A stretch of 64,000 nt of DNA from the human T2T-CHM13v2.0 reference genome, Homo sapiens (GCF_009914755.1 NC_060925.1), one strand, 5' to 3'; shown: positions 55,400 through 59,790, counted from the first letter of the stretch. Made by a program: numbers and translations. Notes: generated by a model not told the origin, from the letters alone.

Positions 55400-55746
55400 G
55401 AATGAATTCTTGATTTCCACTCTATCCCTAATGCTGTCAATTTCTTGATTCATGAAATGAATATGGGTATGTGATATGAATGGATATTTGGTTCAATCCA
55501 TTAATCTGGGGAAAGCCAAAAACCCAATCAGGATTAGCTGGGTGGAACTTCAGAAATGCAATGAGATATTGCTTTTTGATTGGAAGCTAGCAGTGCATAC
55601 GTGGAAGGGCGTGGGTGGGAGTTGTGATTAGAAAGGTCAATAAAAGCTTCTAAAGACCCACAGGAGAGACCCAAAGTCTTCAAGCCTGGAGTTCCTGCTT
55701 GGTTCTTCCTGAGGTCTGAACACCCTGCAAACTGAGCCCAGATCTG
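55400..55746 (+). promoter_or_regulatory. PRAMEF-derived promoter + exon 1 upstream of HNRNPCL
   Basis: Colinear with the 63220-63568 and 49070-49400 modules; caataaaa at 55638; donor cagatctg|gtaagt at 55747. Confidence 0.85.
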
Positions 55747-55975
55747 GTAAGTCACTAATTTCTGTAAGGACACTCCCATGGGACCTACAGTCAGCCGATG
55801 TAGCATGGTGACAGTGCAGCCTACGACAGAGCAGAGCTATATCCTGTCTTTTTTTTCTTTTTTTCATATGAACACTTTGAAGCTTTGATTTTTTTTTCTA
55901 AATGCAGTTTTGTCTTTATTTCAAAAATGTTGATTGTGCTTTTCTTTACGTCATTTCAGAATTCTTGTTGGGAGC

Positions 55976-57692
55976 CATTTTGTGAAGAGACGAAGACTGA
56001 GCTGGTTTGGCTGCATTTCTGGCCTCGAGCCGCAGTCAGCTTCTCCACGTAGAACCCGGCAGTAGGAGACTTAGAATCGAATCTCTTCTCCCTCCCGCCT
56101 CCTGTTTTTGGCTTTTTGAGAAACCTTATCATCCAACACAATGGCCAGCAACGTTACCAACAAGATGGATCCTCACTCCATGAACTCCCGTGTGTTCATT
56201 GGGAATCTCAACACTCTTGTTGTCAAGAAATCGGATGTGGAGGCGATCTTTTCCAAGTATGGCAAAATTGCGGGCTGCTCTGTTCATAAGGGCTTTGCCT
56301 TCGTTCAATATGATAAGGAGAAAAATGCCCGGGCTGCTGTAGCAGGAGAGGATGGCAGAATGATTGCTAGCCAGGTTGTAGATATTAACCTGGCTGCAGA
56401 GCCAAAAGTGAACCGAGGAAACGCAGGTGTGAAACGATCAGCAGCAGAGATGTACGGCTCCTCTTTTGACTTGGACTATAACTTGCAACGGGATTATTAT
56501 GGTGGGATGTACAGTTTCCCAGCACGTGTACCTCCTCCTCCTCCTATTGCTCTGGCTGTAGTGCCCTCGAAACGCCAGCGCATATCAGGAAACACCTCAC
56601 GAAGGGGCAAAAGTGGCTTCAATTCTAAGAGTGGAAAGCGGGGATCTTCCAAGTCTGGAAAGCTGAAAGGAGATGACCTTCAGGCCATTAAGCAGGAGTT
56701 GACCCAGATAAAACAGAAAGTGGATTCTCTCCTGGAAAACCTGGAAAAAATTGAAAAGGAACATTGCAAGCAAGGAGTAGAGGTAAAGAATGCTAAGTCT
56801 GAAGAGGAGCAGACCAGCAGCTCCTCGAAGAAGGATAAGACTCACGTGAAGATGGAGTCTGAGGGGGGTGCAGATGACTCTGTTGAGGAGGGGGACCTAC
56901 TGTGTGATGATGATAATGAAGATCAGGGGGACAACCAGCTGGAGTTGATCAAGGATGATGAAAAAGGGGTTGAGGAAGGAGAGGATGACAGAGACAGGGC
57001 GAATGGCCAGGATGACTCTTAAGCACATAGTGGGGTTGAGAAATCTTATCCCATTGTTTCTTTACCTAGGTGCTTGTCTAACATCAAATTTTTCACCAGA
57101 TCCTCTCCCTTAGCATCTTCAGCACATGCTTACTGTTCTCCCCATCCTTGTCCTTCCCACATTCATTAATTCATATTGCCCTGCACCTAGTTCCATTTTC
57201 ACTTCCCTTGATGCTCCTAGAAGTTTTCTTAAGTCTTACCCTGCAATTTTTGCTTTTAATTTAGATACCTCCTTATGACTTAACAGTAAAAAGGATGTAT
57301 GGTTTTTATCAACTGTCTCCAAAATAATCTCTTGTTATGCAGGGAATACAGTTCTTTTCATTTATACATAAGTTCAATAGTTGCTTCCCTAACTGCAAAG
57401 GCAATCTCATTGAGTTGAGTAGCTCCTGAAAGCAGCTTGGAGTTAGAAGTATGTGTGTTACACCCCATGTCAGTGTGCTGTGTGGGGCAGTTCAACAAAA
57501 ATCTAACAATGTATTTTTGTGAATGAGAGTTGGCATGTCAAATGCATCCTCAGAAAAATAATTAGTGTTATACTCTTAAAATGTGTTTTCTAAAGTTGAT
57601 ACTGTGGGTTATTTTTGTGAACAGCTCCATGTTTGGGACCTTTTTTCCTCAAAATAAACAAGTCCTTATTAAACCAGGAATTTAAAGAAAAA
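55976..57692 (+). other. Retroposed HNRNPC mRNA (5'UTR, CDS, 3'UTR, degenerate A-tail)
   Basis: Intronless; HNRNPC-like 5'UTR cattttgtgaagagacgaagactgagc; AATAAA ~57653; TSD aattcttg(t/g)tgggagc at 55960-55975 and 57693-57708. Confidence 0.9.
56141..57022 (+). CDS. HNRNPCL3: Heterogeneous nuclear ribonucleoprotein C-like retrogene, 293 aa (HNRNPCL3/4-like)
   Basis: Intact ORF; RRM ([14 protein letters not shown]), basic region, leucine zipper, acidic tail; lacks the 13-aa C2 insert, so derived from the C1 isoform; paralog number tentative. Confidence 0.9.
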
Positions 57693-57701
57693 AATTCTTG
57701 G

Positions 57702-59790
57702 TGGGAGCAGTGACTCATGCCTACAATTCCAACACTTTGGGAGGCCAAGGCAGGAGGATCATTTGAGCCCAGGGGCTCGAGACCAACCTGGGCAACATGG
57801 CAAAACCCTATCTCTACAAAACATTTGTTTTGAGGGGTGGGGATGGTATCTGGCTCTGTTACCCAGGCTGGAGTGCAGTGGCATGATCTCAACTCACTCA
57901 AACCTCTGCCTCCCAGGCTCAAGCGATTCTCATGCCTCAGCCTCCTGAGTAGCTGCGATTATAGCCACCCGCCACCATGCCTGGCTAATTTTTATATTTT
58001 TGGTAGAAACAGGGTTTCACCATGTTGGCCAGGCTGGTCTTGAACTCCTAACCTCAAGTGATCCACCTGCCTTGGCCTCCCAATGTGCTGGGATTACACC
58101 AGTGAGCCACCAACGCCCTGCTTCTTTTTTAAAAAATTAGCCGGGCATGGTGGCATGGATCTGTAGTCCCAGCTACTTGGGTGGCTGAGGTGGGAGAATC
58201 CCTTGAGCTCAGAAGATTGAGGCTGCAGTGAGCCATGTTCACACCACTGCTGTACTCCAGCCTGGGCAACAGAGTGAGACCTTGTCAAAAAAAAAAATCT
58301 TAACCAAACAGTTTTTTAAGAAAACCAATTAATTGTAATCAGTAGGCAGATCCCAAATTCCCCAAAAAAAGAAGAGAAAGAGAGTTTAGAAGGCTCTATG
58401 TGCTAGCATCCCATTCAGACTGTTTAATCCTACAATTGTGGTTTTGTAAGAAAAACAGTCTTAAAGATTTCCAATAATTCCCACAATGGCCATAAATTAT
58501 CCTGGGTGTCATTTTCCCATCAATTTAAAAAGGCACATGAGAGGCCGAGTGCAGTGGCTCAGGCCTGTATTCCCAGCACTTTGGGAGGCTGAGGCGGGTG
58601 GATCAGCTGAGGTCAGGAGTTCAAGACAAGCCTGGCCAACATGGAGAAACTCCATTCCTACTAAAAATACAAAAAAGAGCCAGGCGTGGTGGCGGGCACC
58701 TGTAATCCCAGGTACTCAGGAGGCCGAGGCAGGAGAGGCACTTGAACCCAAGAGGTAGAGGTTGCAGTGAGCCGAGATCATGCCATTGCACTCCAGCCTG
58801 GCCACAGAGCCAGACACTATCTCCAAAAATAATAATAATTATTATAACAGCATGTCTATTCTCTCCAAAGTGTCTGGGACTGGACAATTAATTGTGAGGT
58901 CCTCTTCTGTAGCACCATACGCTATAACATATATGTGGATTTAAATAAATACACATACAAAATGCAAGTATATAGTCTATATGCTTTCCATATACTTATG
59001 TTCCATGAGGTCACAAGCAAATTCAAGGCTAGGTCAAAGAGTAGAGTGGCTGTCTATGGAAAGGAGAGTGGAAGTGAATCATGGTAATAAATGGAAATAG
59101 ATACAGATATGAATAGGTAGACATACACACATATAGCTGCAAGAAACGGGGTTGTCGTGGACCAATGATGTCAGTGAGCCATGTAAAAAGGCTACAATTC
59201 TTGCGATTGTGTGTCCGTTTTCAGGATGGGTTGTAGATTACCTTTTTAGAAAGGCTGATGCCACAGTCATAGTCAAAAAAATGATTATAAAATTTGCTTC
59301 CTTTCTGGAGCATCTCTGGAGAAATCTCCAATGGGAGGAGAACTCAGTTACTGGGCAGGTTATCACACAGGTAAGATTTTACTGATCCAATGGCACTAAT
59401 ATTAACTTCATTATCCTTCGTATTCTACAAAGGTTGAGTGAACAAACTGTATCTTGAAACTAAAATTAGCTGAACCAATAAAGGAGACTGCATTCTTTTT
59501 ATTTTTTGTTTAGAGACAGAGTCTCTGTTGCCCAGGCTGGAGTACAATGGTGCTACCTTGGCTCACTGCAACTTCTGCATCCTGGGTTCAAGTGGTTCTC
59601 CTGCCTCAGCCTCCTGAGTAGCTGGGATTACAGGCACATGTCACCACACTGAGCTAACTTTTGTATTTTTAGCAGAAAGGGGGTTTCTCCATGTTGGCCA
59701 GGTTGGTCTCAAACCTCTGACCTTGGGATCTGCCTGCCTCAGCCTCCTAAAGTGCTGGGATTATAGGCGTGAGCCACCATGCCTGGTTGA
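57702..59790. mobile_element. Alu cluster (57702-57825 +, 57826-58120 -, 58125-58300 +, 58542-58845 +, 59495-59790 -)
   Basis: Alu consensus segments. Confidence 0.85.

What the first reader, a model, noticed from the sequence alone, without database searches (positions are those of the whole stretch)
55400..57708. HNRNPC retrogene has hijacked a PRAMEF promoter/exon 1; the TSD and three empty paralogous sites are in the same window
Seen: the HNRNPC retrocopy (55976-57692) is bracketed by a 16-bp TSD (aattcttgttgggagc / aattcttggtgggagc). The same site is present once and uninterrupted in PRAMEF intron 1 at 63777-63792 (+), 48842-48857 (-) and 50996-51011 (-). Upstream lies a complete PRAMEF promoter plus exon 1 with its GT donor. 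No PRAMEF coding exons follow downstream, so the module now serves only HNRNPCL. Known: PRAMEF genes are DUX4-responsive, early-embryo/germline genes, and hnRNP C binds U-tracts and suppresses Alu exonisation. Inference: an intact, diverged hnRNP C paralog was recruited into the embryonic genome activation programme by promoter capture. It keeps the oligomerisation zipper, so it could modulate hnRNP C tetramers.
Basis: partly seen in the sequence, partly recalled or inferred. Interest (0 to 1): 0.8.

Follow-up and report, generated by a model that had tools for sequence, protein, structure and literature searches.

The report
HNRNPC retrogene behind captured PRAMEF promoter
HNRNPCL4 is a processed copy of the HNRNPC gene that landed just inside the first intron of a detached PRAMEF promoter fragment, which probably explains why this known gene family switches on with PRAMEF genes in early-embryo and DUX4-driven programmes.

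Summary
A full-length, intronless HNRNPC (C1-type) retrocopy (55976-57692) is bracketed by a 16-bp target-site duplication. The unoccupied site occurs once in 16 paralogous PRAMEF intron-1 copies genome-wide, three of them in this window. Upstream lie a PRAMEF-type promoter, a 78-nt exon-1 homologue (55669-55746) and a GTAAGT donor. PRAMEF homology ends at about 58311, and no PRAMEF coding exon follows inside the window.

The same junction is shared by the only two other HNRNPCL copies in this assembly. That means one insertion followed by segmental duplication.

New here:
- A pyrimidine tract plus CAG acceptor sits immediately 5' of the duplication. Using it would remove a 213-nt intron and all six upstream ATGs.
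- The RefSeq start of HNRNPCL2 maps 16 nt inside the PRAMEF exon-1 homologue.
- The core promoter stays 94-98% identical to PRAMEF promoters.

Print already lists HNRNPCL2 and HNRNPCL3 as DUX4/FSHD-induced, so promoter capture is well supported. It is not shown by a transcript for HNRNPCL4 itself.

All three reading frames are intact and free of indels. The nonsynonymous:synonymous (N:S) ratios, however, do not differ from HNRNPC pseudogenes.

This is a clean, probably undescribed example of a known mechanism in a known gene family.

The parts
54887..55668 (+). PRAMEF-type upstream region. It includes an antisense Alu ending near 55395 and about 275 bp of unique promoter.
   Evidence: Homologous to the regions 5' of PRAMEF9 and of the 51k and 63k modules (83-85%). 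The core windows are 94-98% identical to 16 PRAMEF-type modules.
55520..55530 (+). AAACCCAATCA, a one-mismatch match to the DUX4 consensus as I recall it (TAAYBBAATCA).
   Evidence: The same motif sits at the homologous place in the 49k, 51k and 63k modules. The second motif, AAATGCAATCA, reads AAATGCAATGA in HNRNPCL4 only.
55641..55646 (+). TATA-like ATAAAA, 23-28 nt upstream of the predicted transcription start.
   Evidence: It is invariant in the aligned modules.
55669..55746 (+). PRAMEF-type non-coding exon 1 homologue.
   Evidence: PRAMEF13 exon 1 (20302-20379) maps exactly here. The RefSeq HNRNPCL2 start maps to the equivalent of 55685.
55747..55959 (+). Predicted 213-nt intron, which is the stub of PRAMEF intron 1. 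It runs from the GTAAGT donor to gcttttctttacgtcatttcAG.
   Evidence: The donor and the CAG are present in 3 of 3 HNRNPCL loci. The intron holds all six upstream ATGs of the unspliced leader.
55960..55975 (+). 5' copy of the target-site duplication.
55976..57692 (+). Full-length processed HNRNPC (C1-type) retrocopy, annotated as HNRNPCL4.
56141..57022 (+). HNRNPCL4 coding sequence: 293 aa, with an RRM at residues 16-87 and a zipper at 180-207.
   Evidence: open frame; RRM_1, 1.1e-11; 2mxy 1.3e-56; 1txp 4.8e-8; 35 aa differences from the parent.
57653..57658 (+). AATAAA polyadenylation signal inherited from the parental mRNA.
57684..57692 (+). A-rich remnant of the poly(A) tail.
57693..57708 (+). 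3' copy of the target-site duplication. It overlaps the first bases of a pre-existing Alu.
57709..58311 (+). Remainder of the PRAMEF intron-1 fragment (Alu-rich). PRAMEF homology ends here.
63777..63792 (+). Unoccupied paralogous site in a spare promoter module upstream of PRAMEF25.
50996..51011 (-). Unoccupied paralogous site in a spare tandem promoter module upstream of PRAMEF9.
48842..48857 (-). Unoccupied paralogous site in the true intron 1 of PRAMEF9.

Best explanation
A full-length HNRNPC mRNA of the C1 type was retroposed once, by the L1 machinery. It landed 213 bp downstream of the exon-1 donor of a PRAMEF promoter/exon-1/partial-intron fragment that is not joined to a PRAMEF gene body. 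That composite unit was then copied by segmental duplication to give the three HNRNPCL loci of this assembly. I infer that transcription starts at the PRAMEF-type TATA-containing promoter near 55669. The non-coding exon 1 (55669-55746) would be spliced from its GTAAGT donor to the CAG at 55957-55959, directly 5' of the target-site duplication. This would give a 259-nt leader without upstream ATGs ahead of the intact 293-aa hnRNP C-like frame. The gene thereby inherits the PRAMEF-type, DUX4-responsive, embryo/germline-restricted expression. Shown here: the anatomy, the single origin, the conserved splice signals and the conserved core promoter. Inferred: use of this start site and this acceptor at HNRNPCL4, direct DUX4 binding, and any protein function.
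For: Structure: the TSD and the empty sites. The insert is intronless and colinear with the parental exons, and it starts at the same base as an independent chr2 retrocopy.

Single origin: of 28 genome matches to the 241-nt junction probe, 3 span the junction, 16 match only the PRAMEF-intron side and 9 match only the HNRNPC side. HNRNPCL2 has the same 5' and 3' duplication copies.

Exon-1 equivalence and the RefSeq HNRNPCL2 start inside it.

Splice signals: GTAAGT and CAG are present in 3 of 3 HNRNPCL loci. The GG>TC change that lengthens the pyrimidine tract is in 3 of 3 HNRNPCL loci and 0 of 17 unoccupied modules. The acceptor has 16 of 20 pyrimidines upstream. Splicing removes 6 of 6 upstream ATGs.

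Core promoter: HNRNPCL4 versus 16 PRAMEF-type modules is 98.4% identical at 55640-55679 but 78-82% in intron windows.

Expression in print (passages only): HNRNPCL2 is in a 12-gene basket of DUX4-regulated genes with PRAMEF4, PRAMEF5 and PRAMEF15 (10.1101/2023.02.20.529303). HNRNPCL3 is among FSHD-induced genes (10.1101/478636). HNRNPCL1 is differentially expressed between groups of arrested human preimplantation embryos (10.1101/2022.06.02.494565). Adult expression is low (PMC8056596; PMC10395990 reports 1 of 116 lung samples). PRAMEF12 is bound by DUX4 in ChIP-seq and strongly induced (PMC5409219).
Against: No transcript, CAGE or ChIP data could be examined. The RefSeq HNRNPCL4 model is a single exon starting at the first retrocopy base (hub table). 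Only the span of HNRNPCL2 was visible, not its exons, so the acceptor is a prediction.

Other AGs behind pyrimidine tracts exist at 55906-55907 (14 of 20 pyrimidines) and 56119-56120 (16 of 20). The CAG state also occurs in 1 of 17 unoccupied modules (L014), so it probably pre-existed and did not evolve for this use.

The DUX4-like site has one mismatch. The motif scan of the window is barely above chance (29 found, 19.2 expected, 2 of 100 shuffles reach 29). HNRNPCL4 alone has lost the second AATCA motif.

Short-read expression calls among 95%-identical paralogs are ambiguous, and none of the passages seen reports expression of HNRNPCL4 beyond low adult levels. The core promoter's similarity could reflect gene conversion rather than selection.
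Confidence: 0.7

Rival explanations
1. HNRNPCL4 is transcribed as RefSeq draws it, as a single exon from a start at or near the retrocopy's first base. The promoter activity would lie in the intron stub or in the retrocopy's own 5' region. On this reading the PRAMEF exon 1 upstream is incidental.
For: The RefSeq model NM_001302551.2 spans exactly 55977-57694 (hub table). The retrocopy begins at the parental start site, which carries initiator-like sequence.
Against: The model's ends coincide to the base with the retrocopy ends, which suggests a model laid down by homology (inference). The retrocopy carries none of the parental upstream promoter. Its 5' UTR differs from the parent at 22 of 163 aligned bases (13.5%). 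Sister gene HNRNPCL2 is annotated as starting in the PRAMEF-type exon 1.
Confidence: 0.12
2. This copy is effectively a silent or decaying duplicate. The juxtaposition with a PRAMEF promoter is real but has no consequence at this locus, and any family-level expression comes from HNRNPCL1, HNRNPCL2 or HNRNPCL3.
For: N:S ratios do not differ from HNRNPC pseudogenes: 38:17 in the HNRNPCL clade against 111:36 for pseudogene-private changes, Fisher p=0.37. The unpolarised count is 53:32 against 128:69, p=0.69. The coding sequence has diverged as much as the 3' UTR (6.8% against 5.8%). HNRNPCL4 alone lost one AATCA motif. None of the passages seen reports expression of HNRNPCL4 beyond low adult levels.
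Against: The frame is open with 0 indels in 882 nt, against 4 indel events in 835 nt of its own UTRs. The chr15 pseudogene, of similar divergence, has 3 indel events in the coding part and a premature stop. Simulated chance of staying open is 0.086 after 60 substitutions and 0.020 after 100. TATA, donor, acceptor, Kozak context and AATAAA are all intact.
Confidence: 0.12
3. The exon 1 at 55669-55746 mainly acts as a distal alternative first exon of PRAMEF25, which lies downstream on the same strand. The retrocopy would be an intronic passenger that is occasionally exonised.
For: PRAMEF25 follows on the + strand (hub table). PRAMEF genes carry tandem spare promoter modules: 49766-51874 matches 47673-49717 at 87.9%. 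A long-read study reports novel-exon PRAMEF9 isoforms in DUX4-expressing cells (PMC12057663, passages).
Against: Two complete promoter/exon-1 modules lie in between, at about 63.4k and about 65.6k. PRAMEF intron homology is broken at 58311. A good acceptor and the retrocopy's own polyadenylation signal lie within 2 kb of the donor.
Confidence: 0.06

Closest known systems
Retrogenes that acquire a pre-existing promoter and 5' untranslated exon from a host or neighbouring gene. I recall this class from work by Vinckenbosch, Fablet, Kaessmann and colleagues; I did not read those papers here. Retrocopy reviews appeared only in the listing.
   Same: A promoterless processed copy lands downstream of a resident promoter and 5' exon. 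It gains a new 5' UTR intron and the expression pattern of the donor locus, and no chimeric protein results.
   Different: The donor is a detached fragment from a multi-copy, rapidly duplicating PRAMEF array, not an intact host gene. The composite unit was then itself amplified by segmental duplication.
HNRNPC (hnRNP C1), the parental gene on contig 14
   Same: 293 aa with no indels. Both RNP motifs are unchanged (motif positions recalled). The zipper at 180-207 differs only by K185Q. The RRM matches 2mxy at 1.3e-56.
   Different: 35 aa substitutions, 17 of them in the acidic tail (208-293). It is intronless, has a different promoter, and adult expression is low or absent according to passages in PMC8056596 and PMC10395990.
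HNRNPCL2 and the third chr1 copy at 12.39 Mb (presumably HNRNPCL1; that name was not verified by any search)
   Same: Same insertion site, same 5' duplication copy, same upstream PRAMEF module, and an intact 293-aa frame.
   Different: About 5% nucleotide divergence from HNRNPCL4. The promoter and exon 1 of HNRNPCL4 resemble some PRAMEF modules more than they resemble the other two HNRNPCL copies (95.2% against 91% in the promoter; 94.9% against 85-87% in exon 1). The 12.39 Mb copy lacks about 3.7 kb that includes the end of the 3' UTR, the AATAAA and the 3' duplication copy.
PRAMEF promoters as DUX4 targets
   Same: The promoter, TATA and exon 1 are near-identical to those of PRAMEF9-type genes. 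PRAMEF genes and HNRNPCL2 or HNRNPCL3 appear together in lists of DUX4-regulated or FSHD-induced genes.
   Different: No PRAMEF coding exons are attached. DUX4 binding at this module was not examined.

Membership tests
L1-mediated processed retrocopy | Lacks the parental introns and is colinear with the spliced mRNA | tested here: met
   The seven coding exons and the 5' exon of the contig-14 gene join without gaps. The coding part is 882 of 882 nt aligned with 0 indels.
L1-mediated processed retrocopy | Target-site duplication flanking the insert, with the site unoccupied in paralogs | tested here: met
   A 16-bp duplication matching at 15 of 16 positions. There are 16 unoccupied paralogous sites genome-wide.
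L1-mediated processed retrocopy | 3' poly(A) remnant after the parental polyadenylation signal | tested here: met
   AATAAA at 57653-57658 and AAAGAAAAA at 57684-57692, directly before the 3' duplication copy.
L1-mediated processed retrocopy | L1 endonuclease-type target (TT/AAAA-like; consensus recalled) | tested here: inconclusive
   Unoccupied sites read TTTCAAAATTC. The exact nick position is ambiguous because of the A-run and the CAA/CAG difference.
Retrogene with captured promoter and 5' exon | Resident promoter and exon with an intact splice donor upstream, on the same strand | tested here: met
   55669-55746 equals PRAMEF13 exon 1. GTAAGT is present in 3 of 3 HNRNPCL loci.
Retrogene with captured promoter and 5' exon | Usable acceptor between the donor and the retrocopy start codon | tested here: met
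   CAG at 55957-55959 with 16 of 20 pyrimidines upstream, in 3 of 3 loci. This shows the sequence is present, not that it is used.
Retrogene with captured promoter and 5' exon | Transcripts that start at the captured promoter and splice into the retrocopy | not testable with these tools
   Indirect evidence only: the RefSeq span of HNRNPCL2 starts 16 nt inside the exon-1 homologue.
hnRNP C family protein | N-terminal RRM | tested here: met
   Pfam RRM_1 at 1.1e-11 over residues 18-79. 2mxy at 1.3e-56. The substitutions in residues 16-87 are V44A, V58D, N59K, R61K, G77S and L80V.
hnRNP C family protein | Leucine-zipper tetramerisation segment | tested here: met
   Residues 180-207 match 1txp at 4.8e-8. 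The only difference from the parent is K185Q. Oligomerisation itself was not tested.
hnRNP C family protein | Amino-acid sequence under purifying selection | tested here: not met
   N:S of 38:17 against 111:36 in pseudogene-private changes, p=0.37. Pairwise Nei-Gojobori dN/dS is 0.37-0.48 against 0.41-0.62 for pseudogene controls. Only the open frame and the absence of indels argue for coding constraint.
Direct DUX4 target promoter | DUX4 consensus site near the transcription start | tested here: inconclusive
   A one-mismatch site at 55520-55530, about 150 nt upstream. The consensus was typed from recall, and the window-wide scan is near chance.
Direct DUX4 target promoter | DUX4 occupancy and induction at this locus | not testable with these tools
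   Induction is in print for HNRNPCL2 and HNRNPCL3, not for HNRNPCL4 specifically.

The most novel reading that the evidence does not exclude
By riding a PRAMEF/DUX4-type promoter, an hnRNP C variant is made in a burst at embryonic genome activation, and ectopically in FSHD muscle. It keeps the RRM and the tetramerisation zipper but has a fast-changing acidic tail. It would co-assemble with hnRNP C and change how U-tract and Alu-containing transcripts are policed, just when DUX4 opens repeat-rich chromatin. On this reading the retained open frames in all copies reflect selection for that stage-specific role.
Probability: 0.15. Interest if true: 0.7.

Novelty: new member of a known kind. Interest (0 to 1): 0.45.

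Why it matters
It gives a simple structural reason why HNRNPCL genes appear in DUX4/FSHD and early-embryo gene lists: they sit behind a copy of the PRAMEF promoter and first exon. It also predicts an exact exon junction (55746 joined to 55960) that can be checked in existing long-read data. The RefSeq single-exon model of HNRNPCL4 is probably incomplete at its 5' end. Spare promoter modules in the PRAMEF array can act as landing pads that give a promoterless retrocopy a ready-made, stage-specific expression programme. The biological weight depends on whether the protein does anything distinct from hnRNP C, and the sequence evidence here leaves that open.

Tried and rejected
1. dN/dS as proof of function. 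Pairwise Nei-Gojobori values for HNRNPCL against the parent (0.37-0.48) overlap those of frameshifted HNRNPC pseudogenes (0.41-0.62). Polarised and regional counts also showed no significant difference. I rejected this as support.

2. 'The AG acceptor evolved after insertion.' I rejected this as stated, because 1 of 17 unoccupied modules (L014) also has CAG, together with the TTGGTGGGAG state of the 3' duplication copy. Only the GG>TC pyrimidine change is specific to the HNRNPCL loci.

3. 'The module is one of the 2.1-kb tandem spare units.' Not exactly. The spare unit extends further into the intron (to 47673) than the HNRNPCL4 fragment, whose equivalent end is 48280.

4. Gene conversion of the HNRNPCL4 promoter by PRAMEF modules. 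Nearest-neighbour identities point that way, but the 100-nt windows differ by only a few bases. I leave it as a weak observation.

5. DUX4 motif enrichment. The window-wide scan is near chance.

6. Literature. Ten searches found no paper stating that HNRNPCL genes use a PRAMEF promoter or exon. Searches were poorly framed, because min_terms let through papers without HNRNPCL. A term search of Birtle et al. 2005 on PRAME duplications found none of hnRNP, retro, promoter or 'exon 1'.

Isoform and target tables in supplements may bear on the start-site claim.

8. No complex or structure prediction was run. The zipper is 27 of 28 identical to a solved tetramer, so a pass would say little.
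Full report
**1. What is in the sequence**

The stretch 55976-57692 is a processed copy of HNRNPC. It matches the exons of the gene on contig 14 one after another, with no introns. It begins at the same base (CCATTTTGTG...) as an independent retrocopy on contig 2, which is the parental start site. 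It lacks the extra bases that follow the exon border TGTACGG|GTCAGT in the parent. From recall, that makes it the C1 rather than the C2 isoform. It ends with AATAAA (57653-57658) and an A-rich remnant.

The copy is bracketed by AATTCTTGTTGGGAGC (55960-55975) and AATTCTTGGTGGGAGC (57693-57708). The same 16-mer occurs singly at 63777 (+), 48842 (-) and 50996 (-). That is 5 matches against 0.14 expected, and 0 of 100 shuffles reached 5. Joining the two flanks in silico gives a sequence that aligns straight through the junction to all three unoccupied paralogs at 82.6-85.6%. The duplicated target overlaps the first bases of an Alu that is present in all the unoccupied sites, so that Alu predates the insertion.

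**2. The upstream module**

The annotated exon 1 of PRAMEF13 (20302-20379) maps base for base onto 55669-55746. A TATA-like ATAAAA lies 23-28 nt upstream and a GTAAGT donor lies directly after.

Homology to PRAMEF 5' regions runs from 54887 to the insertion and resumes from 57691 to about 58311, where it stops just past an Alu tail. PRAMEF9 and PRAMEF13 proteins find coding exons only at 22-25 kb and 42-46 kb. All 12 tblastn segments lie there.

It needs one qualification: PRAMEF25 lies on the same strand just beyond the window, behind two further promoter/exon-1 modules at about 63.4k and about 65.6k (hub table).

Such spare modules are a feature of the array. PRAMEF9 has a tandem second module: 49766-51874 matches 47673-49717 at 87.9%.

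HNRNPCL4 lies between the divergent PRAMEF9 (-) and PRAMEF25 (+). It is flanked by a 94% inverted repeat, 51490-52921 against 61869-63300.

**3. One insertion, then duplication**

A 241-nt probe across the junction found 28 places in the genome:
- 3 span the junction: this locus, C1:12.629 Mb (HNRNPCL2) and C1:12.392 Mb on the minus strand.
- 16 match only the PRAMEF-intron half.
- 9 match only the HNRNPC half (the parent and other retrocopies).

All three junction-bearing loci share the same 5' duplication copy. HNRNPCL2 also has the same 3' copy, including the G/T difference between the two copies. HNRNPCL2 shares the downstream spacer and the next PRAMEF module. The 12.39 Mb copy has lost about 3.7 kb, including the end of the 3' UTR, the AATAAA and the 3' duplication copy.

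**4. How it is probably expressed**

All three loci keep the donor. Immediately 5' of the duplication they all read gcttttctttacRtcatttCAG.

Among 17 unoccupied modules (3 in the window, PRAMEF13, and 13 fetched), the CAG occurs once, in L014. L014 also carries the TTGGTGGGAG state of the 3' duplication copy, so the AG was probably already there. The GG>TC change that extends the pyrimidine tract is found in 3 of 3 HNRNPCL loci and 0 of 17 others.

Splicing 55746 to 55960 would remove a 213-nt intron that holds all six upstream ATGs of the unspliced leader. It would leave a 259-nt leader with none, ahead of AACACAATGG. Competing AGs exist at 55906-55907, which is lost in the other two loci, and at 56119-56120.

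Independent support comes from the hub table. The HNRNPCL2 span begins at window 104805, which maps to the equivalent of 55685. That is 16 nt inside the exon-1 homologue and 62 nt before the donor.

The core promoter of HNRNPCL4 is 98.4% identical to 16 PRAMEF-type modules at 55640-55679 and 96.6% at 55680-55719. Intron windows fall to 78-82%.

A one-mismatch match to the recalled DUX4 consensus is kept at 55520-55530. A second AATCA motif is mutated in HNRNPCL4 only. The scan as a whole is near chance (29 found, 19.2 expected).

**5. What print says (passages only, unless stated)**

- HNRNPCL2 is one of twelve best-discriminating DUX4-regulated genes, beside PRAMEF4, PRAMEF5 and PRAMEF15 (10.1101/2023.02.20.529303).
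- HNRNPCL3 is listed among FSHD-induced genes with PRAMEF2, PRAMEF17 and PRAMEF20 (10.1101/478636).
- HNRNPCL1 is differentially expressed between groups of arrested preimplantation embryos (10.1101/2022.06.02.494565).
- HNRNPCL1 and HNRNPCL4 are low across adult tissues (PMC8056596).
- HNRNPCL1 was detected in 1 of 116 lung samples (PMC10395990).
- PRAMEF12 is DUX4-bound and strongly induced (PMC5409219).
- Long reads show novel PRAMEF9 isoforms in DUX4-expressing cells (PMC12057663).
- HNRNPCL3 is cited as copy-number variable (PMC13639854).

No paper found in ten searches states the promoter capture. A term search of Birtle et al. 2005 found no relevant words. Supplementary tables could not be opened.

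**6. The protein**

All three copies keep a 293-aa frame with no indel. They are 93.2-94.7% identical in nucleotides to the parent.

HNRNPCL4 differs from the parent at 35 residues: 6 in the RRM, 1 in the zipper (K185Q) and 17 in the acidic tail. Both RNP motifs are unchanged, going by my recall of their positions. Pfam and PDB matches confirm the RRM and the zipper.

Constraint on residues is not demonstrable:
- Pairwise dN/dS is 0.37-0.48, against 0.41-0.62 for frameshifted HNRNPC pseudogenes.
- Polarised N:S is 38:17 against 111:36, p=0.37.
- The coding sequence has diverged as much as the 3' UTR, 6.8% against 5.8%.

What does argue for a maintained frame:
- There are 0 indels in the coding part, against 4 indel events in the UTRs of HNRNPCL4. 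The chr15 pseudogene has 3 events in its coding part.
- There are 0 stop-creating changes among the 55 polarised HNRNPCL changes, against 4 of 147 pseudogene-private changes.
- Simulated survival of the open frame is 0.086 after 60 substitutions and 0.020 after 100. I counted about 85 variable sites, taken as independent changes, across the three copies.

**7. Verdict**

It is a further example of a known route to retrogene expression, in a known gene family. The transcript structure at HNRNPCL4 itself and any distinct protein function remain untested.

Noticed in passing
window 47673-51874 (- strand); also 63.4k and about 65.6k (+): PRAMEF9 and PRAMEF25 each carry a tandem second copy (period about 2.1 kb) of promoter, exon 1 and part of intron 1. 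These are possible alternative first exons.
   Followed up: partly
window 51490-52921 and 61869-63300: A 94% inverted repeat flanks HNRNPCL4, which sits between the divergently oriented PRAMEF9 and PRAMEF25. This arrangement could permit inversion by recombination.
   Followed up: no
L003 (G000:C2:190412542-190414248): An independent HNRNPC retrocopy on contig 2 is 98.9% identical to the parental coding sequence. It has an intact 293-aa frame with 8 aa differences.
   Followed up: partly
L005/L026 (G000:C1:12.39 Mb, minus strand): The third HNRNPCL copy has a deletion of about 3.7 kb relative to this window (57333-61062). The deletion removes the end of the 3' UTR, the AATAAA and the 3' target-site duplication copy. 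This copy also has a 14-bp insertion in the exon-1 homologue.
   Followed up: partly
window 55554-55564: HNRNPCL4 alone reads AAATGCAATGA, where the other 2 HNRNPCL loci and all 16 PRAMEF9-type modules aligned read AAATGCAATCA. One of the two AATCA-type motifs is therefore lost at this locus.
   Followed up: partly
window 55480-55746: The promoter and exon 1 of HNRNPCL4 are closer to some PRAMEF modules (95.2% and 94.9%) than to the other two HNRNPCL loci (91% and 85-87%), whereas the intron stub groups with the HNRNPCL loci. This may be a gene-conversion mosaic, but the base counts are small.
   Followed up: partly
window 49070-49753 (-): The RefSeq exon 1 of PRAMEF9 is 684 nt and begins in Alu/poly-T sequence, unlike the 78-nt exon 1 of PRAMEF13. 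The conserved TATA and start-site homologue lies inside it.
   Followed up: no
window 58542-63784 versus G000:C1:12623857-12629085: The spacer of about 5.2 kb downstream of HNRNPCL4 is homologous (87.5%) to the region upstream of HNRNPCL2. 'Spacer plus promoter module' units therefore repeat along the array.
   Followed up: no
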